Source: Bacteriovoracia bacterium
GTDB lineage: Bacteria; Bdellovibrionota; UBA1018; JBFWNL01
Assembly: GCA_050251055.1 (NCBI GenBank)
Contig: JBFWNL010000004.1
Coordinates: forward strand, 13,863-45,862
DNA length: 32,000 nt
Direction: 5' to 3'
The notes beneath the pieces were generated by a model, which did no database searches, had not been told where the DNA came from, and was given only the letters and a program-made list of their open reading frames with translations. Shown piece after piece: positions 6,989-20,936 of this stretch (the stretch's first letter is position 1; every line of letters begins with the position of its first letter). Both the position numbers and the translations under genes were made by a program.

Positions 6989-7822
6989 TTAGACTAACTT
7001 GAGAGCTTGAGTCGGAGCGTTGTTGGCTTGGGCCAAGATCGAAACGCCCGCGGTCTGGAGAATGTTCTCGCGGACCAGTTCGGAAGTTTCCTCGGCGAGC
7101 TCCGTATCCGTCACGCGCGACCGGGCTTGCGCCAGGTTTTCACGAGTCACGCCCAGGTTATTCACCGTGGCTTGGAGCTTGTTCTGCATCGCGCCCATGC
7201 GAGCGCGAGCTCCGTTCACGCGAGCCAAGGCCTCGTCGATGGAGTTGAGGCCGCCGCGGGCGTCTTCGATGCTCGCGGTGCTCAAACCTTCGATGCCCAG
7301 GCTGCTGGCCCGAACGTCGGCTTCGGTCGTGTCGAAGGTAATACGGTCCGCTTCGTCGCTACGCGTACCGACTTGGAACTCAAGCGAGGATTTCTCGGCT
7401 TGGGCGTTCAACAGCGGGGTGCCGTTGAAGTTGGTCACGTTCGCGATGCGGTCCACTTCCTTGGTCAAGCTTTGGAATTCTTGGTCGATGAAGCCGCGCT
7501 CGCGATCACCGATGGTGTCGGAAGCCGCTTGGATCGACAATTCGCGCAGACGGATGAGGATGTTGGAGATTTCCGACATCCCGCCTTCCGCGACCTGGAC
7601 GAAGGAAATGCCGTCGTTCGCATTCCGTTCCGCCTGGCGCATCGAGCGAATCTGCCCGCGCAGGTTTTCCGCAATCGAGAGACCTGCGGCGTCGTCGGCC
7701 GCGGTCGCGATACGGTTACCAGACGCAATACGCGTATAGTGTCTGGCCTGTTGTTGGCTGGTATTATTGAGTACGCGTTGCGCCGAAATCGACGCAACGT
7801 TCGTTGCTATTCTTAAGCCCAT
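6989..7822 (-). CDS. fliC: Flagellin (copy 1)
   Basis: MGLRIATNVASISAQRVLNNTSQQQARHYTRIASGNRITAADDAAGLSIAENLRGQIRSMRQAERNANDGISFVQVAEGGM; C-terminal ARSRVTDTELAEETSELVRENILQTAGVSILAQANNAPTQALKLV. Confidence 0.96.
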   Translation of the reverse strand: MGLRIATNVASISAQRVLNNTSQQQARHYTRIASGNRIATAADDAAGLSIAENLRGQIRSMRQAERNANDGISFVQVAEGGMSEISNILIRLRELSIQAASDTIGDRERGFIDQEFQSLTKEVDRIANVTNFNGTPLLNAQAEKSSLEFQVGTRSDEADRITFDTTEADVRASSLGIEGLSTASIEDARGGLNSIDEALARVNGARARMGAMQNKLQATVNNLGVTRENLAQARSRVTDTELAEETSELVRENILQTAGVSILAQANNAPTQALKLV

Positions 7823-8311: not shown

Positions 8312-9142
8312 TTAGAGAAGCTTCAGAGCCGATTCGCTGTTGTGGTTCGCTTGACTGAGGACTGCGACACCTGCCGTGGACAGGATGTTGGACTTGGTCA
8401 ACTCGCTGACTTCCGTCGCCATATCCACGTCGTAGATCTGGCTGCGCGCCGCCGAGAGATTCTCGTCGTAGATGCGCAAGTTGTTGACCGTCGCTTGCAG
8501 TCGGTTCTGAAGCGCACCCATTTCGGCGCGATTCTCAGTCAGGACCTTGATGCCCATGTCGATCTTCTCGAGGTTGTTCTGGGCGGATTCTTTCGAAGCC
8601 ACCGTCATACCTTGGACCCCAAGGCGATCGGACGTGGTGTTGATTTTGGCCGTGTCGTAGACGAAGCGGTCTTCGCCCGGAATGTTGTTCAGACCCACTT
8701 GGACTTCCAACGGGGAACCTTCCCCAGTCAAGAGCTTGCGCCCGTTGAATTCCGTGGACCGAGAGATCCGGTCGATTTCACCGGTCATCGCTTGCACTTC
8801 TTTGTCGATGAAGCCGCGCTCCGTATCACCGATGGTGTCGGAAGCCGCTTGAATCGACAATTCGCGCAGGCGAATCATGATGTTCCCGATTTCATTCATG
8901 CCGCCTTCGGCCGTCTGAATGAGCGAGATACCGTCGTTAGCGTTGCGAACGTCCTGCCGCATGGAGCGGATTTGCGCGCGCATGCCTTCGGAGATCGCCA
9001 AGCCCGCGGCGTCATCGGCCGCGCGGGTAATGCGAGAACCCGAAGCCAACTTTTCCTGCGAGCGCTTTACAGAGTCATTCGATTGATTCAAATGACGTTG
9101 AGCACCTAACGATTGAACGTTAGTAGATACACGTAGACCCAT
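8312..9142 (-). CDS. Flagellin (copy 2); start reassigned to the internal ATG at 9142 instead of track start 9205
   Basis: MGLRVSTNVQSLGAQRHLNQSNDSVKRSQEKLASGSRITRAADDAAGLAISEGMRAQIRSMRQDVRNANDGISLIQTAEGGM; the upstream extension is not flagellin-like. Confidence 0.96.
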   Translation of the reverse strand: MGLRVSTNVQSLGAQRHLNQSNDSVKRSQEKLASGSRITRAADDAAGLAISEGMRAQIRSMRQDVRNANDGISLIQTAEGGMNEIGNIMIRLRELSIQAASDTIGDTERGFIDKEVQAMTGEIDRISRSTEFNGRKLLTGEGSPLEVQVGLNNIPGEDRFVYDTAKINTTSDRLGVQGMTVASKESAQNNLEKIDMGIKVLTENRAEMGALQNRLQATVNNLRIYDENLSAARSQIYDVDMATEVSELTKSNILSTAGVAVLSQANHNSESALKLL

Positions 9143-9346
9143 ACATACACCCCCATCATGAGCCCGACGGTCAGCGCACGAACGAGCCGCGCCCTCTGCG
9201 GTCATCCGCGGAAAGCGTACAGTTTCGCCCGAGCGCCTAGGCCGCGCCCCGATAGTTACTATTCAGTTGTGACGGGATTTGCTGTACCCCGTCGGAAGTT
9301 TGACGAAGCGAGACCCATTCTCACTCCTGCACCCTTCCTACTGACT

Positions 9347-10564: not shown

Positions 10565-11584
10565 CTAAAAAACCTGCTGAAACGTCGGCTCGGCGGGAGC
10601 CGCCTCTTTATTTGATTTTACTGGGGGTTTCGCGCCGGCCGGAGCGCGCGACGGGGCCGGGGGCACGATGGCGGCGGCCTTTTCACCCACGCCTAGGCTT
10701 TTCTCCGCCTCGCCACCCGGGGGCGGGGGGAGCGCGGGGGCGGCTGGGGTCTCGGCCGTGTTCATGGCGGCGTTAGCCGGACCAGACGTGGGAACGCCCG
10801 GGGCGGGAGTCGATTCGGGCGGCGCCGGCGCATCGAAATCCATCGCGAACGCTTTTTCCTTCTCTTCCTTCGCCTTGGCTTCCGCTTCTTTTTTCTTGGC
10901 GAGCTCAATTTCCGCCAGGCGCTTCGGTTCCATGATCGCGTACTTATCCAAAACGGAACCTTGCTCCTCGTCCCGGCGCGCGAGCGAGAACGGATTCTGA
11001 ACCTCTTCGACCAGCTCCTTGGACATGGCCGGGCCGACGAGCACGCGGCGGTAGAAAACATACTCGCTGATCATGCGATACTGCTTGATCGCCCAGCGTA
11101 GGTAGCGGGGGTCTTTGTATTCCGCGCGAAAAGCGCGGGAAATCGGCGTGAGGAAATCGAACGTCTCGAGCACGGCTTTCTGGCGCTCTTCGACATAAAA
11201 TGATTGTGAAAGACGCTCCTGCAGCTTGCGAATTTTATGGAAGAAGCACCAGTGATACTTCACCGCATCCTGCTGCACGAGCTCGCGCGCGCCCTTGAAA
11301 ACTTCTTCCTTGCTGTTCGTCGCCGTCTGCAGCTTCTTAAAATTTTCGTCGCAGTTCTCGAGATCCTTGGCCACCGGCGCTTCCTTCCGAATGAAGAGCG
11401 CGTTCAAATCACCGATGTCGTAGGTCTCGGGATAGGGGACCTGCACAAAGCCGGGAACTTCCGGTAGCGGCTCCATCGGGCGCACTTCCTGCGTGCCGCA
11501 ACCCGCGGTCAAACCGAGCGCGACGGCGCCGAGGCCAATGAGCCCGAGCCGAAGGTGGGTGGAAGTTTGACGCTTCATAGACAC
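10565..11584 (-). CDS. Predicted lipoprotein with Ala/Pro/Lys/Glu-rich C-terminal region
   Basis: Signal peptide plus lipobox (LRLGLIGLGAVALGLTAGC); charged linker KKKEAEAKAKEEKEK and Pro/Ala-rich tail. Confidence 0.7.
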   Translation of the reverse strand: MSMKRQTSTHLRLGLIGLGAVALGLTAGCGTQEVRPMEPLPEVPGFVQVPYPETYDIGDLNALFIRKEAPVAKDLENCDENFKKLQTATNSKEEVFKGARELVQQDAVKYHWCFFHKIRKLQERLSQSFYVEERQKAVLETFDFLTPISRAFRAEYKDPRYLRWAIKQYRMISEYVFYRRVLVGPAMSKELVEEVQNPFSLARRDEEQGSVLDKYAIMEPKRLAEIELAKKKEAEAKAKEEKEKAFAMDFDAPAPPESTPAPGVPTSGPANAAMNTAETPAAPALPPPPGGEAEKSLGVGEKAAAIVPPAPSRAPAGAKPPVKSNKEAAPAEPTFQQVF

Positions 11585-11790
11585 TGTCTCCAGTAGTCCT
11601 ATCGGAAACCTGACTAGGCGAGTAAACTACCTTAATAATTTTTTGACGCTATAAAAGCTCTATTAAGTCCACGCATTAGCCGCTCGACGGCGAAAATCGC
11701 CAGTTCTACACCAGCGTCAAAGCTCGGCAATCATTCAGGAATCAAGAAGATCAGCGGGCTTACCGAAAAAGAAAATGAGGAATGGTGCCC

Positions 11791-13017
11791 ATGAAGGCCT
11801 GGTTCGTACTACTCACGATCATTAATACAGGTTCCGCGTTCGCGGCGGATCCTCCTACGTCAGCCGCGCCCGCGCCTTCCGCCTCTTCGCCGGCCGCCGC
11901 GACCACGCCGCCCCCGGCTTCCGGCACTACCCAAGCGACGACGGCGAATCCCACGGGAAATCCGAATCAAGGCAAGCCGACGCAATCGACGTTCGCGCCG
12001 GCCGCCGACAAAGATCAAAAGACGCGCAACTTCTATCAGGTGCTCGAAGACGTGATGGGCGATTTCGAATACGACCTAAAAAATGGACAGGTACGCGGCG
12101 TAAAAGATGTTTCCATCCGCGCTATCGCCACGAGCGAGAACGTGCCGCCTTCATTCAAACGCCAGCTCGAGATCTTGCTCACCGAGCGCGTGATCAAGAA
12201 TACGCAAAGCCGCGTGATCCAGTGCCTGCCTTGCCAATCGAAAAAAGCCACCTTGAGCGGCGACAACGTCGTGATCTCTTCCAACGAGCACAACGCGGTC
12301 GAGCTCGCGCGCCTGGCGAAAATCCACGGCATCGCTAGCTATATGGACGTGGCGTTCTCGTACCAGCCCACGGGGCTGTTGCTCTCGATCGCCATCATGG
12401 ACGCCGAGAATAGCGCCATCCTGTGGTCGCGCAGCTACAATTCGGAAACCTCACGCGCCGAGGCCTTCCGCCGTGGCGTGGACTACACGCAGGTCGACGA
12501 GGCCCGCCGCAAGGAAAGTTACGAGCCCACCACGCAATACCGCCCGACTTTGTATTATCTCTTCGAGAAGGACATCAGCTCTTACAGCGGGATGCTCGGG
12601 CTCGGTTTCCGCATGGTGGAGCGCTATGACAATCGGAAAAAAGAAGTCGGCTTCGAAATCAACTACCTGCTCAGTACGTCGACGCTCACCGGCGGCTCCG
12701 CCACTGCCACCACTACCCCGAGCGTGTACGGGGGGTTTAATGTCACGATGCTCTTCGTGCACGCATGGAACTTCATCGGGGATCTGGAAAACTACAACAA
12801 ACCGCGCGGAAGCATCTCGGTCGGCCTGGGCGGCACTTATTCGTCGGGTTTTTTGGGAGCGCTGCTTCGCACGGGTTACGAGTGGCGTTTGGGCAAGCAT
12901 TGGGCGGTTACGGCGATCCTAGGTTACCGACCGCCGTCCACCGCGTTTATTTCAGGAAGTGAAGCTGGCTCCGTTTCGGGGCTGGAGTTTGGAGTGGGGA
13001 TTAGTGCGTTACTTTAA
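11791..13017 (+). CDS. Secreted/outer-membrane protein: CsgG/FlgO-like N-terminal region and beta-barrel-like C-terminus (track start 11782; ATG at 11791 fits the upstream GAGGAA better)
   Basis: Signal peptide (MKAWFVLLTIINTGSAFAADP), Pro/Ala/Thr linker, DVSIRAIATSENVPPSFKRQLEILLTERVI...ELARLAKIHGIASYMDVAFSYQPTGLLLSIAIMDAENSAILWSRSYNSE (CsgG/FlgO-like pattern by eye), then alternating amphipathic Gly/aromatic strands to a hydrophobic C-terminus. Confidence 0.6.
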   Translation: MKAWFVLLTIINTGSAFAADPPTSAAPAPSASSPAAATTPPPASGTTQATTANPTGNPNQGKPTQSTFAPAADKDQKTRNFYQVLEDVMGDFEYDLKNGQVRGVKDVSIRAIATSENVPPSFKRQLEILLTERVIKNTQSRVIQCLPCQSKKATLSGDNVVISSNEHNAVELARLAKIHGIASYMDVAFSYQPTGLLLSIAIMDAENSAILWSRSYNSETSRAEAFRRGVDYTQVDEARRKESYEPTTQYRPTLYYLFEKDISSYSGMLGLGFRMVERYDNRKKEVGFEINYLLSTSTLTGGSATATTTPSVYGGFNVTMLFVHAWNFIGDLENYNKPRGSISVGLGGTYSSGFLGALLRTGYEWRLGKHWAVTAILGYRPPSTAFISGSEAGSVSGLEFGVGISALL

Positions 13018-13813
13018 GGAAGCGATACACACCACCCGGGCAAGCCGGGCCGTACGAGGCGCAGCGCTCACGCTGCTGGCCGTCGTGTGTGCCGCGTTTC
13101 CCCAAGGCTGCGCCTCCATGAAGAACGCTCTAGGCTTAAACAACAATCAGCAGGAACCTTCGAAACCCATCGAAGACCCGTTTGGAAACTTCTACGAAGC
13201 GGCCAAGCACCGCAACGAAAATGTGATTTTACGCACGAAAAAAGGTGACCGCTCCATTGAGGTGGAGATGCCTTCGCGCGGTGAAGAGCAGCTCGCCGAT
13301 CTGGTGGTCCCGATGTCGCCCCAGTTCGCCGACACCGGCTCCGGCCGCGGCCCCGCCTCAACGGGGGACGGCTACGGCCTGGACGCGAAGTACCAGGAGC
13401 AACGGCCTGGCCTTACGGACCGCGAAATCGCCCAGAGCATGCCCCAAGGCAGCCCGGAAATGGCCGGGAAACGCAGCGAAATCGAAGAGGGTTTGGGCCT
13501 GGTGGGCGCCGACGATTCCGCCCCCGAAAACGATAAGAGTTATCTGGCCGCGATCGACTACATTAAGCAGCTCTATAAGAGCCGGCGTTACGAGGCGGCG
13601 CTCATCGAGATCGATCGCATGCTCCCTCGCTATCCGACGGACGCGAAGCTCTATGAGATGCGCGGGACCCTGCTCGCGAAGCTGGGCTACGAAGATCTAG
13701 CGATGAAGTCGTGGGAGCAAGCCCTGTCCCTGAACCCGCGTAACAAGTCGTTAGCCAAGTTTCTGCAAGCCCGGAAGGATCCATTGAGAAGGGGGACGGC
13801 GTCATCGCCCTAA
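13004..13813 (+). CDS. TPR-containing lipoprotein (track start 12959; GTG at 13004 favoured)
   Basis: Hydrophobic signal then ...VVCAAFPQGC; TPR-like YKSRRYEAALIEIDRMLPRYPTDAKLYEMRGTLLAKLGYEDLAMKSWEQALSLNPRN; GGAGTGGGG before GTG; short overlap with upstream ORF. Confidence 0.7.
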   Translation: MRYFKEAIHTTRASRAVRGAALTLLAVVCAAFPQGCASMKNALGLNNNQQEPSKPIEDPFGNFYEAAKHRNENVILRTKKGDRSIEVEMPSRGEEQLADLVVPMSPQFADTGSGRGPASTGDGYGLDAKYQEQRPGLTDREIAQSMPQGSPEMAGKRSEIEEGLGLVGADDSAPENDKSYLAAIDYIKQLYKSRRYEAALIEIDRMLPRYPTDAKLYEMRGTLLAKLGYEDLAMKSWEQALSLNPRNKSLAKFLQARKDPLRRGTASSP

Positions 13814-16236
13814 TGAATATGGTGAAGCATTCCTTCAACTACCGCCAAATCATTCTCTGGGGGCTGACCCTTTATCTCACGCTCGCCACGCCGTTCGCCT
13901 TCGGCAGCAGCTATCAGGACTACGAGCGCGTGAAACGCGCTTCCGAAACCCAAGTGCGCAACATCGTGCAGCCGCTCGTTTCTAAATACTGCCAAGACCA
14001 ATGCGAGCTCTTGAACGTCGAGGCGGAAGTAAAGACGGATGATCCGGCGGCGATCGCCCCGGGGTTCGAGGACACGGACACCGCTGGCGGCTTACGCCTG
14101 GTGCCGGCGGTCGTGCGGGTGAAGCTCTTGATCGACGAGATGGTCGGCCCCAACCTGCGCCGTAACCTCATTGACCTCATCCATAAGCACCTCAACGCGA
14201 TGGAATATCCGGTGGCGATCGACACTACGCTCACGCGCTTCCCGCAACCCTTGAACTCCGCACGCAAGGTCGCTGAGCTGCGGGACAAGGTCACGAAACA
14301 ATTCAAAGAAACGCTGGGCCAGCTTTTCAACCAATTCTGTCCTGAGCAATGCCTCCTGGCCGACTATGACATTAAGGTCGAACCGGTTAACTTAGAGGAA
14401 ACGCAGTACGGTTCCTCGGGCGAATACGTGCAGGACGGCGACACCGCGATCCGCGTGAAGAAAGTGACCGGCACGGTGCTCCTCGACACGACGCTCACGC
14501 CCGACGAGCAAAACAACATCATTGAAATGACGAAGCTCAAGACGAGCTACCTCAAGAACGTCGAGCTCATGGCCCAAACCATGACGTTTCCGCATCCACT
14601 ACCGTTCGAAGGCGACGGAAAGCTGGGCGTGGGTCGCGGAGGGCTGGCGGGCCGCGGGGGCAAGAGCCTCTCGGAATCGCGCTCGCTCGCCTCCAACAGC
14701 GACTCCAAGTCGACCTTAAGCAAGCTCGATAAGCAAAATTCCACCAGCAACAGCACGAATAGCAACAACAGCACCAACAGCAGCTCGAACAACGTCAACA
14801 GCAAGGACGCGATCGAGAAAAATGAAAACGCCACGAAGAACGAAAAGTTCGAGCGCTACGAGAAGATCGAGCGCGTGGAAGACGGCGATGCCGTTCAAGA
14901 ACAGCTCAAACGATACGGCCTAATCGCCCTGGTTTTCGGCTGTTCCGTGGTGGCGCTCATGGTGCTCATGTGGATCGCGCTGGCGCGTCGCAACGACCGC
15001 GGTCGCGCGGGCGGACTGCCGCGCTTTATCCAGGGGATCACCCCCGAGTTCCTGCAGCCCAAGGCGCCCGCCGCCGGCGATGGCGGCGTCGGATCCGGTC
15101 GTGGCGAGCTCATCGCCAAGCGGTACGAGATCGAGCAGCTTTGCGAAGAGCTTACCAAGGTGTTTGCCGAGCAGCCCAAGGTGGCCAAACACGTCTTTAC
15201 CCGCATCCTGACCGAAGAGGGCGTCGAAATCACCGCCGACTACCTCGCGATCTTTGGCGAAACGATCGTCATGGACATGTTGCGCGATCCGAACCTACAG
15301 CGTGACTTGACCGAACTGATGGAGTTCTTCGCGAAGAATCAGATTGAGCTCAACGACGACGAGAAACTCGATCGCTTAAAACGGTTGCACAACCGCACGG
15401 TCGCTTCGAAGCTGATCGTGATGGGCAAACGTACGTCCAACTCGTTCGAGTTCCTGTTCGACATGGACAGCCTGCAGGTGTTGGAGCTGATCAAGAACGA
15501 ATCCGTCACCGTGAAGGCGATCGTCATCACGCAATGCGACCCGCAGAAGCGCACGGCTATCTTCAACCATCTGGACGAGCCGACGCGCATGAAGCTCCTG
15601 AACGAACTCTCGCGTATCGACTACCTGCCGCGCGACTACATCTTCAACGTGGCCAACGCTCTCAAGCGCAAGCGTCAGGACAACCCGAAGCTCAACACGG
15701 AAGCCCTGCCGGGATCCGACGTGCTGGTCGGATTGCTCGAACGCACGCCCTTCGATATTCAACGCAATGTCGTGCAACAGCTCGAAGCCACCAACCCCGA
15801 CAACGCCCGGGCGGTCAAGAGCAAGCTCGTCAGCATCGACACGCTCACGTATCTACGCGATGCCCAGCTGCTCGAGATGGTCATGGGCCTGAAGCATGAC
15901 GAGCTCCTGCAGTTCCTGAAAGGCGCGCCGAAGCATATCTGCGACACGATCTACCGCAAGGCTCCGAAGGAGCTCGTCGAAGAACTCAACGAAGAGTTGG
16001 GATCGGTGTCCGAAGTGGGACGCGATGCCTACCAGACCATCGAGCGTAAGCTCATCAATCGCATCAAAGTCATGGCCAACGAGGGCCACATCAACCTCGT
16101 GGAAACCAACGAGCGGATGTTCACCGATCGGCAAAGCAACGTCGAGGCGATCACCCGCGGCGGCCAGGGCGGCGACGGCAACACCGGTGGCATGACGGGC
16201 ACGGGCGGGCAGTTCAAGAAAGTGGCGGGTTGGTGA
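13813..16236 (+). CDS. Membrane-anchored FliG-like protein: signal peptide, two duplicated extracytoplasmic CxxxC modules (FliF/ring-building-motif-like by eye), Ser/Asn linker, TM helix, FliG-like cytoplasmic region
   Basis: 807 aa. TAATG overlap with upstream gene. TM approx residues 370-391 (LIALVFGCSVVALMVLMWIALA). FliG-M/C-like: FEFLFDMDSLQVLELIKNESVTVKAIVITQCDPQKRTAIFNHLDEPTRMKLLNELSRID and LRDAQLLEMVMGLKHDELLQFLKGAPKHICDTIYRKAPKELVEELNEELG. Confidence 0.8.
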   Translation: MNMVKHSFNYRQIILWGLTLYLTLATPFAFGSSYQDYERVKRASETQVRNIVQPLVSKYCQDQCELLNVEAEVKTDDPAAIAPGFEDTDTAGGLRLVPAVVRVKLLIDEMVGPNLRRNLIDLIHKHLNAMEYPVAIDTTLTRFPQPLNSARKVAELRDKVTKQFKETLGQLFNQFCPEQCLLADYDIKVEPVNLEETQYGSSGEYVQDGDTAIRVKKVTGTVLLDTTLTPDEQNNIIEMTKLKTSYLKNVELMAQTMTFPHPLPFEGDGKLGVGRGGLAGRGGKSLSESRSLASNSDSKSTLSKLDKQNSTSNSTNSNNSTNSSSNNVNSKDAIEKNENATKNEKFERYEKIERVEDGDAVQEQLKRYGLIALVFGCSVVALMVLMWIALARRNDRGRAGGLPRFIQGITPEFLQPKAPAAGDGGVGSGRGELIAKRYEIEQLCEELTKVFAEQPKVAKHVFTRILTEEGVEITADYLAIFGETIVMDMLRDPNLQRDLTELMEFFAKNQIELNDDEKLDRLKRLHNRTVASKLIVMGKRTSNSFEFLFDMDSLQVLELIKNESVTVKAIVITQCDPQKRTAIFNHLDEPTRMKLLNELSRIDYLPRDYIFNVANALKRKRQDNPKLNTEALPGSDVLVGLLERTPFDIQRNVVQQLEATNPDNARAVKSKLVSIDTLTYLRDAQLLEMVMGLKHDELLQFLKGAPKHICDTIYRKAPKELVEELNEELGSVSEVGRDAYQTIERKLINRIKVMANEGHINLVETNERMFTDRQSNVEAITRGGQGGDGNTGGMTGTGGQFKKVAGW

Positions 16237-16751
16237 TGATCGAAATAACGCCTACCGTCGAGTTATTGAAAGAGATCAATCTGTTCGCCTCGTTCAATGA
16301 GCACGAGCTGAACGAGATCTTGCGTACCGGTGAATCAAAGGTATTCGAGGCCTATAGCAACGTGGTCATCGAAGGCGAGCTGAGCTGGGGGCTTTACATT
16401 ATTTTGGAAGGCACGGTCGGCATCTTCAAGAATAGCGCGACCGCGAAGGATATTACCTACGATATCGGCCAGCTAAAGAAAGGCAGCTTCTTCGGGGAGA
16501 TGTCGCTCGTCGACGAGAATCCGCGCTCGGCCACCGTTCGCGCGCTTACCGAATGTCAGCTTTTTTTCATCTCCAAGGAAAGCTTCTCCGCCTTCCTGGA
16601 CCGGTCCGGCGACGGAAAAAACCGGTTTTACGAACGATGCGTGAAAATCCTGGTTGGCCGTTTGCGCGAGCTGAACGACAACTACGTCATCAGCCAGTAC
16701 CAGCTGTGGAAGACCGCGCTGGAGAAAGATAAAGAAGAGGAAGTAGCCTAA
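16236..16751 (+). CDS. Single-domain cyclic-nucleotide-binding (CRP/CAP-type cNMP) protein without HTH (track start TTG 16230; ATG 16236 gives ATGA overlap)
   Basis: INLFASFNEHELNEILRTGESKVFEAYSNVVIEGELSWGLYIILEGTVGIF and phosphate-binding cassette FFGEMSLVDENPRSATVRA. Confidence 0.9.
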   Translation: MIEITPTVELLKEINLFASFNEHELNEILRTGESKVFEAYSNVVIEGELSWGLYIILEGTVGIFKNSATAKDITYDIGQLKKGSFFGEMSLVDENPRSATVRALTECQLFFISKESFSAFLDRSGDGKNRFYERCVKILVGRLRELNDNYVISQYQLWKTALEKDKEEEVA

Positions 16752-17536
16752 TGAATATCTCATCTTTATTCGGCGTATTGTTGGGTATCGGGGTCGTCTA
16801 CTCATCGCTCCACGAGAGCGGCATGGACATGATCTTCTTCCTGAACTTTCACGGGGTGGTCATCGTTTGCGGCGGCACCCTTGCCGCTGCCAGCATCAGC
16901 TTTCCCATGACGAAGATCGTCTCGCTATTGAAAGTATTTTTCCTGCGCGTGCTGGGCCGCAACCGGATTGACTACCAAGGCACGATCGAACAGATCTTGG
17001 ATTTGAATAAAAAAGTTAGCATCGGTAGTGCCGCGTTGAAGGACGTAATTCAGACCATCAAGCACCCTTTCTTAAAGGAAGCCGTGGGCCTGGTCGCCAC
17101 CGGCGTGCTCACCGAGCGCGAAATTCGCACCGTGCTCGAGCAGCGCATTAAAACGATGGAATCGCGCTACTTGCACGAAGCCAACATGTTCAAGGCCATC
17201 GGCAAGTTTCCGCCGGCCTTCGGGCTGCTCGCCACCACGCTCGGCATGATCGCGCTTTTGCAGCAGATGGGAAAACCGGGCAGCGAAAAGCTCATCGGAC
17301 CGGCCATGTCCATCGGGTTGATCGGCACCCTATACGGGATCGCGCTCACGAACCTAGTCTTTCTCCCGATCGCGGAAAACCTCACCGAACGCACCGAGGA
17401 AGAAATGGTGCTGCGCCGGATGATCGTCGAAGGGGCCGTGCTGCTCAAAGCCCAAACCAATCCGTTGGCCCTGCGCGAAAACCTCAACTCGTTCCTGGCT
17501 CCAAAGGACCGGGTTACCCGCAAGTCAGCGGCCTAA
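16751..17536 (+). CDS. motA: MotA/PomA-family flagellar-type stator protein
   Basis: GVVIVCGGTLAAASISFP, AIGKFPPAFGLLATTLGMIALLQQMG, IGPAMSIGLIGTLYGIALTNLVFLPIAENL; TAATG coupling with the upstream gene. Confidence 0.93.
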   Translation: MNISSLFGVLLGIGVVYSSLHESGMDMIFFLNFHGVVIVCGGTLAAASISFPMTKIVSLLKVFFLRVLGRNRIDYQGTIEQILDLNKKVSIGSAALKDVIQTIKHPFLKEAVGLVATGVLTEREIRTVLEQRIKTMESRYLHEANMFKAIGKFPPAFGLLATTLGMIALLQQMGKPGSEKLIGPAMSIGLIGTLYGIALTNLVFLPIAENLTERTEEEMVLRRMIVEGAVLLKAQTNPLALRENLNSFLAPKDRVTRKSAA

Positions 17537-17554
17537 GGGGCATAAGGAGCAGCG

Positions 17555-18370
17555 ATGGCCGTTAACGATTTCCTGAAAGCCGCCAAGCAGATTCAGGAAG
17601 AAGAAAAAAAGAAACAAGATCCGCCCAAAAAAGGGGGCCACGACGACGAGTCGAACTGGCTGATTTCCTACGCGGACATGATGACCTTGCTTTGCGGATT
17701 CTTCATCATGCTTTTCAGCATGTCTAGCCTAAGCAAACCGAAATACGAGGCCGCCGCGAAGGAGATTTCGGAGCACTTCGGCGCGGTGAAGCAGGACGAA
17801 GTGCCGAATCCAGAGCTCGTGAACGAGATGAAAAAAGTCATCCACGAATCCCATCTAGACAAGGAGGTGAAAGTCACCTCCACCCAAGAGGGGGTCACGA
17901 TCGTATTCGCTTCTACCGTGCTCTTTAACTCGATGAGCTCTTACATCCGCGAGGACGGGCGCACGGTGCTGAATCAGCTCATCGGCACGATCAAAGGGCA
18001 GCAAGAAAAGGGCGATGAACGTTTTAAGATCGTAGTGGAAGGCCATACCGACGCGCAACCCATCTTGAGCGGAATCTATCCGTCTAACTGGGAGCTTTCT
18101 AGCGCACGCGCCACGAAGGTGGTCCGCATGTTTCATGACGAAGGCTTCGATCCCGCTCGCCTCATGGCGATCGGCTACGCCGACTCGCGTCCCGAAGCTA
18201 AGAACCGCACGCTGGCGGGCGCCTGGGACGAAGAAGCTCTGAAAAAAAACCGCCGCGTCGTCATCCACGTTTTCGATCCCAGCGTCGACTCCATTCCTTG
18301 GCGCGAAAAAACCGCCGCCCCGCCGCCGCGCGCCGCTGCATCTTCTGGCCCGGCAGAATCTGCCCATTGA
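17555..18370 (+). CDS. motB: MotB-family stator protein with OmpA-like peptidoglycan-binding domain
   Basis: NWLISYADMMTLLCGFFIMLFSMSS with the ion-channel Asp (residue 41); OmpA-like VVEGHTDAQPILSGIYPSNWELSSARATKVVRMFHDEGFDPARLMAIGYADSRP. Confidence 0.94.
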   Translation: MAVNDFLKAAKQIQEEEKKKQDPPKKGGHDDESNWLISYADMMTLLCGFFIMLFSMSSLSKPKYEAAAKEISEHFGAVKQDEVPNPELVNEMKKVIHESHLDKEVKVTSTQEGVTIVFASTVLFNSMSSYIREDGRTVLNQLIGTIKGQQEKGDERFKIVVEGHTDAQPILSGIYPSNWELSSARATKVVRMFHDEGFDPARLMAIGYADSRPEAKNRTLAGAWDEEALKKNRRVVIHVFDPSVDSIPWREKTAAPPPRAAASSGPAESAH

Positions 18371-18417
18371 ACTAACCCAGTCCCCCTGGAAATCTAGACA
18401 GTGGGAGACTGAAAAAT

Positions 18418-19452
18418 ATGCGTTGGAATTGCCCTCACTGTGGAACCACGTTGACCGTATCGGACGATAAGGTAGGCGAGAACTGGTCGTTTTCACGTTG
18501 CTACTCTTGCCAAGGCTTCGCGCTGGTGAGGAAATCGCAGGTCAGCATCATTAAAGTTCATCAACCTCCCTCCGGCGAGCAGTACATCGTCACCACTCAT
18601 CAGCAGGAGCAGGCTTCCGCGACCCACTCCCAAACGCATCACGACGCACGCCCCGCCGCCCGCCCCGTCGTGCGACCCGTGGTTCGCCAACCGGCGGCCC
18701 TGCCCCCGCCGATCGAAGTCGCGCCCGTCATGCACCAGGCTCCTTCTATGCATATGGCCGTTCCCCTGGCGGCCCCGACTGCTCCCAGCCCTACGAAAAC
18801 GCAGATGTTCACCATATCCGATGGCACGGGCGCCGAGACGATCACCGTCGCCGCGACTACCTCTAGTCCACGCCGAAAAATGCCGGCCGCGCTCGTACCC
18901 ATTGGTATCGGGCTTGCGGGCGCTATCGCCATATCGTCGGGAGTTTATCTCTATCAGCAAGGCCAGGCCTTGTTTCAACTGGCGCAAAAACCGATCGCAG
19001 CGGAATCCCCCACGGAAATGCAGGTGGCGCGATTGCAAGCCCCCCCCTCGCTCGATCGCATCCCGCAAAGCGCGATGGCGCCCGAGCGCGTGACCGAAAT
19101 CCGCAGCCTGCCTAAAATCGAGCGCATCGATCCTCCCGAAGTCCGTCCGGCGGCCCCGATCGCGATCACCAAGCGCGTAGAAGAAAAGCGAGAGGAGTCG
19201 GACGACACCCCGGCCATCGAGCCGCGCCCCACCGCGGTGCAGGTCAAAAACAGTTACGCGAATCTCCGCGCCGGCCCTAGCCTCGAGCATCCCATCGTGG
19301 GCGTGGCCGAACCCGGCACGATCTACCTGATCAAGACCTGGGAGGGGCGCTGGTTCAACATCGTGCCCGAAGATCCCGCGCAGGCGGCGCTTCAAAAGAA
19401 ATCGATGTGGGTGCGTAATGACCTGGTGGAGACCCTCGTCTCCACGAATTAA
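18418..19452 (+). CDS. Zinc-ribbon / TM / SH3-like domain protein
   Basis: N-term MRWNCPHCGTTLTVSDDKVGENWSFSRCYSCQGFALV (two CxxC, zinc-ribbon_5/MJ0042-like); TM ALVPIGIGLAGAIAISSGVYLY; C-term VKNSYANLRAGPSLEHPIVGVAEPGTIYLIKTWEGRWFNI (SH3b-like). Confidence 0.8.
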   Translation: MRWNCPHCGTTLTVSDDKVGENWSFSRCYSCQGFALVRKSQVSIIKVHQPPSGEQYIVTTHQQEQASATHSQTHHDARPAARPVVRPVVRQPAALPPPIEVAPVMHQAPSMHMAVPLAAPTAPSPTKTQMFTISDGTGAETITVAATTSSPRRKMPAALVPIGIGLAGAIAISSGVYLYQQGQALFQLAQKPIAAESPTEMQVARLQAPPSLDRIPQSAMAPERVTEIRSLPKIERIDPPEVRPAAPIAITKRVEEKREESDDTPAIEPRPTAVQVKNSYANLRAGPSLEHPIVGVAEPGTIYLIKTWEGRWFNIVPEDPAQAALQKKSMWVRNDLVETLVSTN

Positions 19453-19457
19453 GTCGC

Positions 19458-20936
19458 CTAGCGATCCAACCCGATGGGTTCGCAACGCCAAAGGGTCAGC
19501 GTTTTCGCCGGAAAGTTTAAACGCCGAAACTCACGCGCCAGCCGCGGCTGGCAATTTGCCTCGAGAAACCGGGGCGGCTCCGCGTAACGATTGTCCGCCA
19601 CATAATAAACCGGCTTCAATAGCTTCGGCCATTCGGGGCCCCATCCGCTCACGGCTTCCGTTTCCGGCCACTCGTCACGCTCGCGAGCGGGGCGCGGAAC
19701 GCGGGCGACGCCTTCCACGCGCTTGAGCGCGAAGGCCGCTTGGGCGGCCGTTTGGTACCGGCTCGCTAAGACCACCGGCTCCGTTTCGTCCGGCGCGGCT
19801 TCCGCCAGCATCTCGCCAAAGCCCGCCCAACCGACGAGATCGTTACTGACGTCCCATTTCGGTTCCAGCTCCTTGCCACTGAAAGTGCGCGAACTCCAAG
19901 CCATGAGTGGCAGCTGACAGGAAAGCAAGATAACGACGACCCAGCCCAAACCGTAAGCGGCCTGCAGCCGCGGCCACAGGCCATCGACTTCTGACTTTTC
20001 AGTCATGCGGCCAATGGCTTCCAAGGCGAGCGGCAGCCACGCCGCAAAGATCCAATGCGGTTTAAAATCCGAAAAAAGCGGCTGAATCGCGTAGGCGAGC
20101 AGGGGCGGCAAGGCCCAAGCCCACGCGAAGCGCGAGACGCGCTCACCCGCGCGTGCGCGGCGCAGGCCGCGCAAAAAAAACCAGACCAACGCCGGTCCGA
20201 GCAGCACGAGCTGCAGGATCCAAAAACGCCCGAAGCGCGCCCAGGAAAGCCCCGTCCCACCATGTCGCTCTTTCATTTGATAAGCGAGCGCGGCCCAGTC
20301 GTGGGCGGAATTCCAAAGCACCGTGGGCAAAAGGCCGATCGCCGTAGCCACGAGCATTACTCCCAGCCCTGGCGCGCGGGAGCCGGGACGGGAAAAAATC
20401 AGGGCGCAAAGCACCGCCGACGCGGCCACCGCCCCCCCGGAAAGCTTCGCCCACATCGCGATCACGATCCCCGTCGCCAGCCACCCAAAATGCCACCGAG
20501 ACGACGATCCCGCGGCGATTTCCCAAGCTCCGTTCATCGCCAGCAGGACGCCCGCGAAGAGCGGCAGATCCGGCACCGCCATCCAGGCAAATCCGTAGAG
20601 AAAAGTCGTCCCCAGCCACGCGGCCACCAGCCAGCCCGGCGACACCGGCACGAACGCGCGCAAAATCCAACGCAACCCCAGGAAGAAAATCAGCGCCGCG
20701 TAGACCGCCGACACCAGCCGCACGGAGATTTCGGCCGAAACCAACCGCTCCGCCAACCAAATCGACCAGACGATGGCGGGCGGGTGGTAGGCGAACCCCC
20801 AGTCGGGCCGCTGCGCGAGCACCCAGTAATAAGCTTCGTCGTCTGAGAGCCCGAACGAATTCCCGAAGATGAGGTAGAAACCAAAGACCCCAAGCGTGGA
20901 CCAGGCCAGCCAACGCGGCAGAGGGGCGATGCGCAT
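19458..20936 (-). CDS. PMT/ArnT-like polytopic glycosyltransferase
   Basis: NSFGLSDDEAYYWVLAQRPDWGFAYHPPAIVWSIWLAERLV typical of the GT39/GT83 N-terminal loop; many hydrophobic segments. Confidence 0.82.
   Translation of the reverse strand: MRIAPLPRWLAWSTLGVFGFYLIFGNSFGLSDDEAYYWVLAQRPDWGFAYHPPAIVWSIWLAERLVSAEISVRLVSAVYAALIFFLGLRWILRAFVPVSPGWLVAAWLGTTFLYGFAWMAVPDLPLFAGVLLAMNGAWEIAAGSSSRWHFGWLATGIVIAMWAKLSGGAVAASAVLCALIFSRPGSRAPGLGVMLVATAIGLLPTVLWNSAHDWAALAYQMKERHGGTGLSWARFGRFWILQLVLLGPALVWFFLRGLRRARAGERVSRFAWAWALPPLLAYAIQPLFSDFKPHWIFAAWLPLALEAIGRMTEKSEVDGLWPRLQAAYGLGWVVVILLSCQLPLMAWSSRTFSGKELEPKWDVSNDLVGWAGFGEMLAEAAPDETEPVVLASRYQTAAQAAFALKRVEGVARVPRPARERDEWPETEAVSGWGPEWPKLLKPVYYVADNRYAEPPRFLEANCQPRLAREFRRLNFPAKTLTLWRCEPIGLDR

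What the first reader, a model, noticed from the sequence alone, without database searches (positions are those of the whole stretch)
11782..19452. Compact operon for a candidate non-canonical stator-driven, envelope-spanning machine
Seven co-directional genes, several start/stop-overlapping (13004 overlap, TAATG at 13811-13815, ATGA at 16236, TAATG at 16749-16753). They encode an OM-like protein, a TPR lipoprotein, a membrane-anchored FliG-like protein, a cNMP-binding protein, MotA, MotB and a zinc-ribbon/TM/SH3-like protein. No canonical flagellar basal body, FliM, FliN or export gene is in the operon. The parts could supply a proton/ion-driven stator, a cytoplasmic torque-receiving module, transmembrane coupling, an OM component and a nucleotide-sensing switch. 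Possible roles are a dedicated gliding or predation motor, an envelope-remodelling machine, or an accessory flagellar module. The domain content and coupling are seen; the function is inference. I cannot tell whether it has been described in relatives, which may carry several MotAB pairs.
Basis: partly seen in the sequence, partly recalled or inferred. Interest (0 to 1): 0.92.

Follow-up and report, generated by a model that had tools for sequence, protein, structure and literature searches.

The report
Membrane-anchored FliG paralogue with private stator
A conserved operon in an uncultured group of Bdellovibrio-like bacteria pairs a flagellar-type ion-driven stator (MotAB) with a second FliG, the protein the stator normally pushes on, which here is fused to a membrane anchor and a new periplasmic domain and sits next to outer-membrane partners; this looks like an undescribed offshoot of the flagellar motor whose job is still unknown.

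Summary
The seven co-directional, partly overlapping genes are real and their domain calls hold. The core is five genes: g1, an outer-membrane-barrel-like protein; g2, a TPR lipoprotein; g3, an 807-aa single-pass protein; MotA; and MotB. g3 has a signal peptide, a duplicated novel periplasmic domain, one TM helix and a complete but divergent FliG (N-M-C). MotA and MotB are flagellar-type.

These five genes are kept together in about 70 species-level genomes of Bdellovibrionota (g1 67/67, MotA 68/69). Distant relatives (Silvanigrellales and a short-g3 type) keep them in a different order, g1-g2-MotA-MotB-g3, which argues for functional coupling rather than inherited synteny. The cNMP-binding gene is clade-specific (61/74). 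It also lies next to an orphan g3 in cultured Pseudobacteriovorax.

One carrier, the magnetotactic FG-1, has a separate canonical fliF-fliG-fliM-fliN cluster and at least five motA genes, so in that carrier this is not the main rotor/stator locus; the window's own genome could not be checked.

g3 has lost the FliM-binding EHPQR motif but keeps an acidic torque helix. A sigma-28-like promoter motif is shared with flagellin genes.

No Pfam, NCBIfam, PDB or literature entry describes the module. Its function is unresolved: a second rotor, a stator dock, or an autonomous machine. I rate it a new variant of a known kind, interest 0.78.

The parts
11742..11769 (+). Sigma-28-like promoter motif TCAAGAAGATCAGCGGGCTTACCGAAAA, just upstream of g1
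   Evidence: The exact pattern T[CA]AAG-N15-17-CCGA[ATG]A[AC] has 27 hits in 2.26 Mb of related loci: 13 directly upstream of g1 and 6 upstream of flagellin genes. The window copy was found. The flagellin promoters in the window carry the related TAAAG-N16-CCGATC.
11782..13017 (+). g1: secreted protein with a conserved N-terminal periplasmic domain (invariant CxxC) and a C-terminal beta-rich, barrel-like half ending in Phe. Likely real start is ATG 11791.
   Evidence: Present in 67/67 loci with enough flank. Homologues sit in the rearranged modules L084, L088 and L090.
13004..13813 (+). g2: lipoprotein (invariant lipobox Cys) with C-terminal TPR repeats
   Evidence: Present in 69/71 loci. Homologues in L084, L088 and L090.
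13813..16236 (+). g3: 807-aa bitopic FliG paralogue (signal peptide, two periplasmic repeats, Ser/Asn-rich linker, invariant ERVExGD juxtamembrane motif, one TM helix, cytoplasmic FliG N-M-C)
13918..14598 (+). Duplicated periplasmic domain of g3 (repeat 1 = residues 36-148, repeat 2 = residues 149-262). Each repeat has an invariant CxxxC and an apparent alpha-beta-beta-alpha-beta order.
   Evidence: hhalign of repeat 1 against repeat 2: probability 97.9%, E 4.6e-13. No Pfam or PDB sequence relatives. An exhaustive HMM search found the domain in only 159 clusters; those examined were g3-like proteins, and the many short hits were not examined.
14920..14988 (+). Single transmembrane helix of g3 (residues ~370-392), followed by a basic stretch (cytoplasmic side)
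   Evidence: Hydropathy peak of 2.72. Conserved in alignment A1.
15121..16122 (+). Cytoplasmic FliG-like region of g3 (residues ~437-770). The torque-helix equivalent is at about 15958-16032.
   Evidence: Pfam FliG_M and FliG_C. PDB profile hits to FliG 3ajc/3hjl/1lkv. 22% identity (E 8e-17) and hhalign probability 97% to the canonical FliG of carrier FG-1. EHPQR is lost, K264 and the D288/D289 equivalents are kept, and the R281 equivalent is acidic.
16236..16751 (+). g4: stand-alone cyclic-nucleotide-binding protein with an intact phosphate-binding cassette (FGEMSL..NPRSATV) and no DNA-binding domain
   Evidence: Present in 61/74 loci. A homologue (E 3e-46) lies convergent to the orphan g3 in Pseudobacteriovorax antillogorgiicola.
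16751..17536 (+). g5: flagellar-type MotA/PomA-like stator A subunit
   Evidence: PDB best hits are MotA1, C. sporogenes MotA and PomA, E 1e-26 to 3e-32. Cytoplasmic loop consensus ELNKKAS[LI]G..AL[NKS][ED]. Present in 68/69 loci.
17555..18370 (+). g6: MotB with plug, conserved channel Asp (NWLxSYADMMTLL) and an OmpA-type peptidoglycan-binding domain
   Evidence: Present in 67/68 loci.
18418..19452 (+). g7: accessory protein with an MJ0042-type zinc ribbon, Pro-rich linker, one TM helix and a weak C-terminal SH3_3 match
   Evidence: Present in 44/60 loci, relocated in L042/L073, reduced to 113 aa in L002 and absent from the rearranged modules.
10565..11584 (-). hyp339: divergently transcribed helical lipoprotein. 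It is a conserved neighbour and possibly associated.
   Evidence: Present in 55/63 loci. A sigma-28-like motif lies on its side of the intergenic region in 27/54 loci, but none was found in the window. Absent from L084, L088 and L090.

Best explanation
The locus encodes a private rotor-stator pair derived from the flagellar motor, wired to the envelope instead of to a C-ring and rod.

Shown:
- MotA and MotB are bona fide flagellar-type stator subunits: four-TM MotA, MotB plug, channel Asp, and an OmpA-type peptidoglycan anchor.
- g3 contains a complete but divergent FliG (N, M and C domains). It is tethered by one TM helix to a duplicated periplasmic domain that has no known relatives.
- g1 (barrel-like secreted protein) and g2 (TPR lipoprotein) always travel with them.
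- At least one carrier genome has a separate canonical fliFGMN cluster and several other motA genes.

Inferred mechanism:
- Ion flow through the peptidoglycan-anchored MotA5B2 unit turns the MotA pentamer.
- The cytoplasmic loop of MotA pushes on the acidic torque helix of the g3 FliG_C domain.
- g3 lacks the FliM-binding EHPQR motif and is itself membrane-embedded. Movement is therefore passed through its TM helix to the periplasmic tandem domains, and from there to g2/g1 at the outer membrane. It does not go to FliM/FliN or to a rod.
- I commit to g3 being the moving partner, either a ring or a track assembled through its periplasmic repeats.
- The operon appears to be transcribed from a sigma-28-like promoter together with flagellins. 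The device would then work in the swimming (attack-phase) cell, most likely at or near the pole bearing the single polar flagellum (thick, Bdellovibrio-like in the imaged carrier FG-1).
- The stand-alone cNMP-binding protein g4 is taken to gate the g3-stator engagement in response to cAMP or cGMP.
For: Domain identities.

Operon coupling: overlapping stops and starts.

Conservation in window-type loci: g1 67/67, g2 69/71, MotA 68/69, MotB 67/68.

Independent rearranged linkage, g1-g2-MotA-MotB-g3, in distant versions:
- L084, 986-aa g3
- a Silvanigrellales MAG (identified there only by gene sizes and Pfam calls, since no DNA was held)
- L088 and L090, ~570-610-aa g3 with one periplasmic repeat

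The periplasmic domain occurs only in this protein family as far as examined: 159 of 1.84 billion representatives matched, and the ~12 checked were g3-like.

A separate canonical rotor and extra stators exist in carrier FG-1: FliF/FliG/FliM/FliN at OOOAGBFP_00031-44, and K02556 MotA at 02087, 02662, 02687, 02691 and 02696.

EHPQR is present in the FG-1 canonical FliG but replaced in g3 (NESxTVK).

Both sides of the classical E98(MotA)-R281(FliG) pair are altered. The g3 position is always acidic. The MotA position is N/K/S, and K in the window. The acidic 288/289 pair and a basic pair in MotA are kept.

The sigma-28-like motif is shared with flagellin genes.

g3-g4 adjacency is kept in Oligoflexales. 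The cNMP cassette is intact.
Against: - No structure could be predicted, so ring-building ability of the periplasmic repeats is unproven. They show no sequence similarity to FliF/SctJ.
- No direct evidence shows that this MotAB touches g3 rather than the canonical FliG.
- In Oligoflexales g3 is an orphan without an adjacent MotAB, so g3 can work with stators encoded elsewhere, or without any.
- Broad synteny in the window clade also covers unrelated housekeeping genes (xerC, trmFO/gidA), which weakens synteny as evidence within that clade.
- Which of the FG-1 motA genes belongs to the module was not resolved, and the canonical fliFGMN cluster and extra motA genes were seen only in FG-1, not in the window's own genome.
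- The sigma-28 assignment is a motif match, not a mapped promoter.
Confidence: 0.45

Rival explanations
1. Static dock or regulator of flagellar stators. g3 would be a membrane-fixed FliG decoy that, with g1/g2 as a periplasmic and outer-membrane scaffold (in the manner of PflA/PflB, MotX/MotY/FlgT or FlgX), recruits, parks or sequesters this particular MotAB set around the polar flagellar motor. The cNMP protein would switch stators between the dock and the real C-ring, acting as a clutch or stator-exchange device.
For: - Flagellar-type stator.
- Sigma-28-like motif shared with flagellins.
- Flagellin and FliD genes next to the module in the window clade, and a flagellin next to a short-type module.
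- The carriers for which phenotype or gene-content reports were found are flagellated: FG-1 has a single thick polar flagellum, and Silvanigrellales are motile with flagellar genes.
- The phylum commonly has 1-4 motAB pairs serving one flagellum.
- The orphan g3+g4 pair in Oligoflexales fits a regulator that acts on stators encoded elsewhere.
- There is a precedent for accessory proteins that bind the cytoplasmic face of stators: FlgX, from the abstract of PMC11725899.
Against: - A fixed partner on the torque interface of a rotating MotA pentamer would stall it rather than stabilise it.
- The 11-gene short-type operons hold two further barrel proteins and large unknown proteins but no flagellar gene.
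- Known stator scaffolds contain no FliG-like domain.
- MotA diverges strongly between module types (hmmsearch E 1e-15 to 1e-32 against the window-type profile). This fits co-evolution with g3 better than constraint by the conserved canonical FliG.
Confidence: 0.3
2. Autonomous non-flagellar envelope machine. A MotAB-powered device unrelated to the flagellum would move or energise outer-membrane components, for example for gliding, prey contact or outer-membrane homeostasis. It would be functionally analogous to Tol-Pal, Ton, Agl-Glt or GldLM, but would use flagellar-type cytoplasmic coupling.
For: - It has its own FliG paralogue, without the FliM-binding motif.
- It has its own barrel protein and TPR lipoprotein.
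- Short-type operons contain extra OMP_b-brl proteins and no flagellar genes.
- A canonical rotor and other stators exist elsewhere in FG-1.
- No flagellar rotor or export gene lies within 1.29 Mb of flanks.
Against: - The sigma-28-like promoter is shared with flagellins.
- The module sits next to flagellins repeatedly.
- No carrier known to lack flagella was found.
- Nothing links it to gliding (Glt/Agl) or predation genes; the GltJ hit of g7 is a generic zinc-ribbon match (E 0.01 against a cut-off of 450 bits).
Confidence: 0.17
3. Ordinary flagellar motAB operon whose neighbours are unrelated genes kept together only by inherited synteny. g3 would be a decaying or moonlighting FliG duplicate.
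For: Wide synteny in this clade also includes unrelated genes. MotAB is flagellar-type.
Against: - Translational coupling.
- The five-gene set is preserved after rearrangement in distant lineages.
- g3 is under strong purifying selection over its whole length: 57% mean column identity, with about 110 invariant columns across 20 sequences sharing 43-58% identity with the window protein.
- The periplasmic domain is found only in this family as far as examined.
Confidence: 0.05

Closest known systems
Flagellar rotor-stator pair (FliG with MotAB/PomAB; 'FIT', TGI4-type stators of PMC12505986)
   Same: MotA aligns end to end with solved MotA/PomA structures. MotB has the plug, the channel Asp and the OmpA-like domain. 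The cytoplasmic part of g3 aligns with FliG N-M-C and keeps the K264 and D288/D289 equivalents on the torque helix.
   Different: g3 is a single-pass membrane protein with a ~340-residue periplasmic part. It lacks EHPQR, so FliM docking is unlikely (inference), and its R281 equivalent is acidic. The MotA loop has lost R88/K89 (a basic pair sits 3 residues earlier) and E96. No FliF, FliM, FliN, rod or export genes are in the unit. All NCBIfam equivalog cut-offs are missed.
Natural FliF-FliG fusion of Chlamydiaceae (Bergeron 2016, PMC4768692) and engineered Salmonella FliF-FliG fusions (PDB 8z4d)
   Same: One polypeptide with small periplasmic alpha/beta domains, a TM helix and a cytoplasmic FliG-like region. 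The topology resembles SctJ/FliF plus FliG.
   Different: The g3 periplasmic repeats show no detectable sequence similarity to FliF/SctJ. g3 carries a whole FliG, not only the M domain. The paper lists only FliF, FliL and FlhA as Chlamydia's flagellar genes, with no stator among them, whereas g3 is encoded with MotAB. g3 has a cleavable signal peptide and one TM helix, where FliF has two.
Periplasmic and outer-membrane stator scaffolds of high-torque polar motors (PflA/PflB, MotX/MotY/FlgT, FlgP disk, spirochaete collar; FlgX)
   Same: TPR and outer-membrane-associated proteins are encoded with or act on stators, in bacteria with fast polar flagella. FlgX contacts the cytoplasmic side of stators (abstract of PMC11725899). 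The rest of this comparison is from my own knowledge.
   Different: None of those proteins has a FliG-like domain, and none is homologous to g1 or g2 by Pfam/NCBIfam.
Tol-Pal, Ton and Agl-Glt envelope-spanning systems driven by 5:2 motors
   Same: An ion-driven 5:2-type motor, an inner-membrane-anchored transducer reaching into the periplasm, a TPR protein (like CpoB) and outer-membrane partners all sit in one operon. This comparison is from my own knowledge of those systems.
   Different: Those motors are TolQR/ExbBD-type ('GIT') and couple through the transducer's TM helix. Here the motor is flagellar-type, and the only recognisable coupling surface is the cytoplasmic FliG domain. ExbB/TolQ models score far below MotA models.

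Membership tests
Flagellar stator MotA/MotB (PomAB/MotPS-like) | MotA_ExbB channel domain with full-length similarity to solved flagellar MotA/PomA | tested here: met
   Pfam 8.5e-19. PDB hits 1e-26 to 3e-32 over residues 1-255.
Flagellar stator MotA/MotB (PomAB/MotPS-like) | MotB plug helix, channel Asp and OmpA-type peptidoglycan-binding domain | tested here: met
   MotB_plug 1.3e-18 and OmpA 3.6e-13. SYADMMTLL is conserved at >=90%.
Flagellar stator MotA/MotB (PomAB/MotPS-like) | Score above NCBIfam equivalog cut-offs (MotA, MotP, PomA, MotB, MotD, MotS) | tested here: not met
   Best rows were 149 bits against a 394 cut-off (MotP) and 168 bits against 283 (MotD).
Flagellar stator MotA/MotB (PomAB/MotPS-like) | Canonical charged residues of the MotA cytoplasmic loop (PomA R88/K89, E96/E97; E. 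coli R90, E98) | tested here: inconclusive
   R88/K89 are replaced by S/L with a KK pair three residues earlier. E96 is N/K/S. E97 is kept as E/D.
Flagellar stator MotA/MotB (PomAB/MotPS-like) | Drives rotation of the flagellum through C-ring FliG | not testable with these tools
   Needs genetics or imaging.
FliG (flagellar rotor/switch protein) | FliG_M and FliG_C domains | tested here: met
   35.0 and 44.5 bits, both above the Pfam gathering scores. hhalign probability 97% to a canonical FliG over residues 38-327.
FliG (flagellar rotor/switch protein) | Equivalog-level similarity (TIGR00207) | tested here: not met
   50.7 bits against a 226.7 cut-off. 22% identity to the FG-1 FliG.
FliG (flagellar rotor/switch protein) | EHPQR motif that binds FliM | tested here: not met
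   The family has NES(L)TVK and E in place of R160. The canonical FliG of carrier FG-1 has NEHPQT...LRI.
FliG (flagellar rotor/switch protein) | Soluble ~330-aa protein attached to the MS ring via FliG_N and the FliF C-terminus | tested here: not met
   g3 is 807 aa with a signal peptide, a periplasmic region and a TM helix.
FliG (flagellar rotor/switch protein) | Charged torque helix (K264, R281, D288, D289, R297) | tested here: inconclusive
   K264 and D288/D289 equivalents are kept. R281 is E/D with K/R one residue earlier. R297 is shifted by one.
FliF/SctJ ring-building (RBM) proteins | Sequence membership (Pfam YscJ_FliF) or profile similarity to FliF RBM1-2 | tested here: not met
   No Pfam hit at E<=1. 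The PDB profile search was empty.
FliF/SctJ ring-building (RBM) proteins | alpha-beta-beta-alpha-beta fold and ring assembly | not testable with these tools
   Structure prediction was unreachable in 17 attempts. The alpha-beta-beta-alpha-beta order is only my reading of the alignment.
Tol-Pal / Ton (TolQR, ExbBD) systems | TolQ/ExbB-type A subunit and TolR/ExbD-type B subunit | tested here: not met
   The ExbB model scores E 0.032 against 1e-44 for the MotP model. The B subunit has MotB plug and OmpA domains.
CRP/FNR transcription factors (for g4) | cNMP-binding domain followed by a C-terminal HTH | tested here: not met
   Only the cNMP domain is present in 171 aa, with no HTH. The phosphate-binding cassette is intact.

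The most novel reading that the evidence does not exclude
The module is a second, self-contained rotary motor that evolved from the flagellar rotor-stator pair. g3 would assemble through its duplicated periplasmic domains into a membrane ring, a natural MS-ring/FliG fusion without FliM/FliN, rod or export gate. Its own MotAB units would spin that ring, and its rotation would be delivered to an outer-membrane complex (g1/g2). One example would be turning or bearing the outer-membrane sheath at the base of the thick polar flagellum, as an epicyclic outer ring counter-rotating to the C-ring. Another would be moving surface components.
Probability: 0.25. Interest if true: 0.95.

Novelty: new variant of a known kind. 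Interest (0 to 1): 0.78.

Why it matters
As far as I know, FliG is the only known partner of flagellar-type MotAB stators, and it has only been seen as a soluble C-ring subunit. A widely conserved membrane-embedded FliG paralogue, encoded with its own MotAB and with outer-membrane partners, would show that the flagellar torque interface has been re-used for another output.

It would also give a natural, minimal rotor-stator pair (no FliM/FliN, no export apparatus) for studying torque generation and the origin of the MS-ring/C-ring connection. It may explain part of why Bdellovibrio-like bacteria keep several stator sets.

Cultured or culturable relatives make it testable. Pseudobacteriovorax antillogorgiicola carries g3+g4. 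The module was seen in a Silvanigrellales MAG, and a short-type g3 in a 7.5-Mb genome-sized contig of unidentified origin.

Tried and rejected

2. Sequence tests for FliF/SctJ homology of the periplasmic repeats were negative.

3. An apparent g1-g2 fusion protein in L090 would have been Rosetta-stone evidence. I rejected it. The middle of the 757-aa frame is Arg-rich out-of-frame text, and g2 has its own lipoprotein signal, so this is a frameshift or a stop-free frame.

4. A clean compensatory charge swap between MotA E98 and FliG R281 holds in the window (K paired with E). Family-wide, however, the MotA position is N/K/S, so I report only that both sides of the pair are altered.

5. Searches for canonical FliG, FliF and FliN in 1.29 Mb of flanks found none. 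The answer came instead from the FG-1 annotation tables.

6. Rfam and tRNA scans of the window were empty.

7. The generic sigma-70 and terminator scan was no better than shuffles.

8. Pfam on the extra genes of the short-type operons gave only OMP_b-brl and a weak TonB_C hit.

9. Literature searches for FliG-like, FliG paralogue or membrane-anchored FliG with MotAB returned only the Chlamydia fusion and spirochaete FliG1/FliG2.

Full report
**Observation.** The seven + strand ORFs are present at 11782-13017, 12959/13004-13813, 13813-16236, 16236-16751, 16751-17536, 17555-18370 and 18418-19452.
- g1's TAA (13015-13017) overlaps a GTG start of g2 at 13004.
- TAATG joins g2 and g3 (13811-13815).
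- TGATG joins g3 and g4 (ATG at 16236).
- TAATG joins g4 and MotA (16749-16753).
- MotB follows after 18 nt with an AGGAG, and g7 after 47 nt.

Pfam and NCBIfam confirm the domain content:
- FliG_M and FliG_C above gathering score in the 807-aa protein.
- cNMP_binding (9.5e-20).
- MotA_ExbB, with best rows MotP/MotA/PomA.
- MotB_plug plus OmpA.
- An MJ0042 zinc ribbon in g7.

The TPR calls for g2 and the SH3 calls for g7 are below cut-off. 'OM-like' for g1 rests on a weak Autotransporter hit, weak DUF3575 hits in 8 of 21 homologues and a C-terminal beta pattern ending in Phe. Hydropathy gives g3 a signal peptide and a single strong TM helix at ~370-392, followed by basic residues.

**Anatomy of the key protein.** An alignment of 20 homologues shows conservation along the whole length, at 43-58% identity to the window protein. 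The parts, in order, are:
- a signal peptide;
- two ~113-residue periplasmic repeats, each with an invariant CxxxC;
- a Ser/Asn-rich linker;
- an invariant ERVExGD motif just outside the membrane;
- the TM helix;
- a ~335-residue cytoplasmic region.

The two repeats are homologous to each other (hhalign 97.9%, E 4.6e-13). By inspection they read as alpha-beta-beta-alpha-beta. They have no relatives in Pfam or the PDB and no detectable similarity to FliF.

The cytoplasmic region is a full FliG. It gives profile hits to FliG crystal structures. It also shares 22% identity (E 8e-17) and hhalign probability 97% over residues 38-327 with the canonical FliG of a genome that carries the module.

Two differences from canonical FliG stand out. 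First, the FliM-binding EHPQR motif is gone: the family has NES(L)TVK, and Glu replaces R160. The canonical FliG of the same clade keeps NEHPQT...LRI. Second, the torque helix keeps the K264 and D288/D289 equivalents but has Glu/Asp where R281 sits.

**The stator.** MotA aligns over its full length with solved flagellar MotA/PomA structures (3e-32 to 1e-26). MotB has the plug, the channel Asp and the OmpA domain, and all are conserved across the family. In the scheme of PMC12505986 this fits a flagellar-type ('FIT') stator better than a TolQR/ExbBD-type motor; this is my reading, since I built no tree. The cytoplasmic loop departs from the PomA pattern AARKGGFLALEE. The family consensus is NKKAS[LI]G..AL[NKS][ED], so R88/K89 are lost, a KK pair sits three residues earlier, E96 is no longer acidic (Lys in the window) and E97 is kept. 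Both sides of the classical MotA-E98/FliG-R281 contact are therefore changed. This is what a private interface would look like, but it rests on alignments and is an inference.

**Conservation.** The g3 family has over 150 clusters at 90% identity, all from Bdellovibrionota-type MAGs. A scan of GTDB species representatives returned 88 loci, of which 80 were kept. tblastn with the window proteins found the following in loci with enough flank:

| Gene | Loci with the gene |
|---|---|
| g1 | 67/67 |
| g2 | 69/71 |
| g4 (cNMP) | 61/74 |
| MotA | 68/69 |
| MotB | 67/68 |
| g7 | 44/60 |
| hyp339 (divergent lipoprotein) | 55/63 |

Unrelated neighbours (M14 peptidase, DedA, XerC, TrmFO) are also syntenic in this clade, so this alone could be inheritance.

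The decisive evidence came from an exhaustive HMM search with the periplasmic domain alone. It found 159 hits in 1.84 billion representatives. The hits examined fall into three groups, the window type, a ~910-990-aa type and a ~540-620-aa type with a single repeat; the roughly dozen checked by Pfam, gene context or the g3 profile all have a FliG-like C-terminus or match g3, and the many short, probably fragmentary, hits were not examined. In these distant versions the same five genes are adjacent but in a different order, g1-g2-MotA-MotB-g3:
- L084;
- a Silvanigrellales MAG (identified there only by gene sizes and Pfam calls, since no DNA was held);
- L088 and L090, where they sit inside ~11-gene operons with two further barrel proteins and no flagellar gene.

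In Oligoflexales, including cultured Pseudobacteriovorax antillogorgiicola, g3 is separated from any MotAB. There it sits tail to tail with a clear homologue of the cNMP protein (E 3e-46). So g1-g2-MotA-MotB-g3 is a functional module, and g3-g4 is a second conserved pair.

**Is it simply the flagellar rotor/stator locus?** No. FG-1 and FG-2 carry the module (L067/L068 and L039). They are the magnetotactic 'Bdellonasia' described in PMC13200544: vibrioid cells with a single thick polar flagellum. The paper's KEGG table for FG-1 lists a canonical FlgC-FliE-FliF-FliG-FliH-FliI...FliL-FliM-FliN cluster. It also lists at least five K02556 MotA genes, plus MotB genes elsewhere. Cultured Bdellovibrio-like genomes have 1-4 motAB pairs that stand alone as pairs (PMC11323537). 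No canonical rotor gene lies in the 1.29 Mb of flanks I hold.

**Link to the flagellum.** The motif T[CA]AAG-N15-17-CCGA[ATG]A[AC] resembles a sigma-28 promoter. It has 27 exact matches in 2.26 Mb of the window-type loci. Of these, 13 lie immediately upstream of g1 and 6 upstream of flagellin genes. The window copy is at 11742-11769, just before the probable true start of g1 at 11791. With a looser consensus, 28/54 g1-side and 27/54 hyp339-side intergenic regions match, against about 5% for control genes. Flagellin genes are adjacent in the window clade and beside one short-type module. The carriers for which phenotype or gene-content reports were found are flagellated: FG-1 is, and Silvanigrellales are motile with flagellar genes. 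This is a motif match, and in Bdellovibrio sigma-28 is thought to control a broad attack-phase regulon (my own knowledge). It therefore argues for expression in the swimming cell, not for physical membership of the motor.

**Explanation.** The best-supported reading is a private rotor-stator pair. A peptidoglycan-anchored MotA5B2 unit acts on the FliG domain of g3. Because g3 is membrane-embedded and probably cannot bind FliM, having lost the EHPQR motif, the output goes through its TM helix and periplasmic repeats to g2/g1 at the outer membrane. g4 adds a cAMP/cGMP input; its phosphate-binding cassette is intact.

I commit, at 0.45, to g3 being the moving partner (ring or track) in a device co-expressed with the flagellum. 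The rivals are:
- a static dock or regulator for flagellar stators (0.30);
- a fully autonomous machine (0.17);
- an ordinary motAB operon with unrelated neighbours (0.05), largely refuted by the rearranged loci.

**Known relatives and novelty.** The closest precedents are:
- the flagellar FliG-MotAB pair itself;
- the natural FliF-FliG fusion of Chlamydiaceae (PMC4768692) and the engineered Salmonella fusions (8z4d);
- stator scaffolds such as PflAB/MotXY/FlgX;
- Tol-Pal-type envelope machines, functionally.

g3 fails equivalog-level FliG membership (50.7 against 226.7 bits), lacks EHPQR and is not soluble. Its periplasmic part is not FliF by sequence. The stator misses all NCBIfam equivalog cut-offs. 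Searches of the paper library found no description of a membrane-anchored FliG with MotAB. I file it as a new variant of a known kind.

**Limits.**
The PDB alignments and the FG-1 FliG from the paper's supplement support the same residue assignments.
- An apparent g1-g2 fusion in L090 was rejected as a frameshift artefact.
- The canonical fliFGMN cluster and the extra motA genes were documented only for FG-1, not for the window's own genome.

Noticed in passing
window 2376-3776 (-), 6989-7822 (-), 8312-9205 (-): FliD and two flagellin genes lie upstream of the operon on the other strand. The flagellin upstream regions carry sigma-28-like motifs (TAAAG-N16-CCGATC and TCAAG-N14-GTCGATA). The flagellin, flagellin, MeaB arrangement is conserved next to the module in many relatives.
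   Followed up: partly
window 10565-11584 (-): A 339-aa helical lipoprotein with an Ala/Pro-rich tail and no family match is transcribed divergently from g1 and is conserved in 55/63 related loci. In about half of them its side of the intergenic region has a TTTGCCGA(G/T)AA-type sigma-28-like motif, but none was found in the window.
   Followed up: partly
window 19458-20936 (-): A 492-aa multi-TM protein with an N-terminal 'SDDEAYYW' motif is reminiscent of GT-C (ArnT/PMT-like) glycosyltransferases. It has no Pfam hit and is a conserved convergent neighbour of g7 in most relatives.
   Followed up: no
L067:8001-9749 and L068:8001-9743 (Bdellovibrionota FG-1): The FG-1 assembly has two loci with g1-g2-g3. 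The g3 genes are 93% identical in protein (90% in DNA), while g1/g2 show no nucleotide similarity. Both contigs end at the same g3 residue (~597). This means either two paralogous modules in one genome or co-assembled strains.
   Followed up: partly
L088:1126-13205 and L090:1120-13365: The short-type g3 (567-611 aa, one periplasmic repeat) sits in ~11-gene co-directional operons. These hold two OMP_b-brl proteins, several 500-725-aa proteins with no family match, g1, g2, MotA, MotB and g3, followed by ~320-aa and ~180-aa proteins; the last has a weak TonB_C hit (E 0.008). L090 comes from a 7.5-Mb contig.
   Followed up: partly
L089:6198-9156 (Pseudobacteriovorax antillogorgiicola, GCA_004346105.1): An orphan g3 homologue lies tail to tail with a g4 (cNMP-binding) homologue, immediately upstream of a pilM-N-O-P-Q type IV pilus cluster. 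No MotAB lies within 10 kb.
   Followed up: partly
window 14680-14830 (g3 residues ~290-340): There is a Ser/Asn/Thr-rich low-complexity linker between the periplasmic repeats and the juxtamembrane motif. Its length and sequence are highly variable among homologues.
   Followed up: no
window 29692-31956 (-): A 754-aa protein combines DUF1284, TPR and a soluble lytic transglycosylase (SLT) domain, which is an unusual fusion.
   Followed up: no
L020, L047, L048, L050, L052, L053, L055, L060, L061, L064, L070, L076, L080: A sub-clade of window-type loci lacks the cNMP gene, so g3 is followed directly by MotA. In L020, g3 is followed by a g7-like fragment without a detectable g4 or MotA.
   Followed up: no
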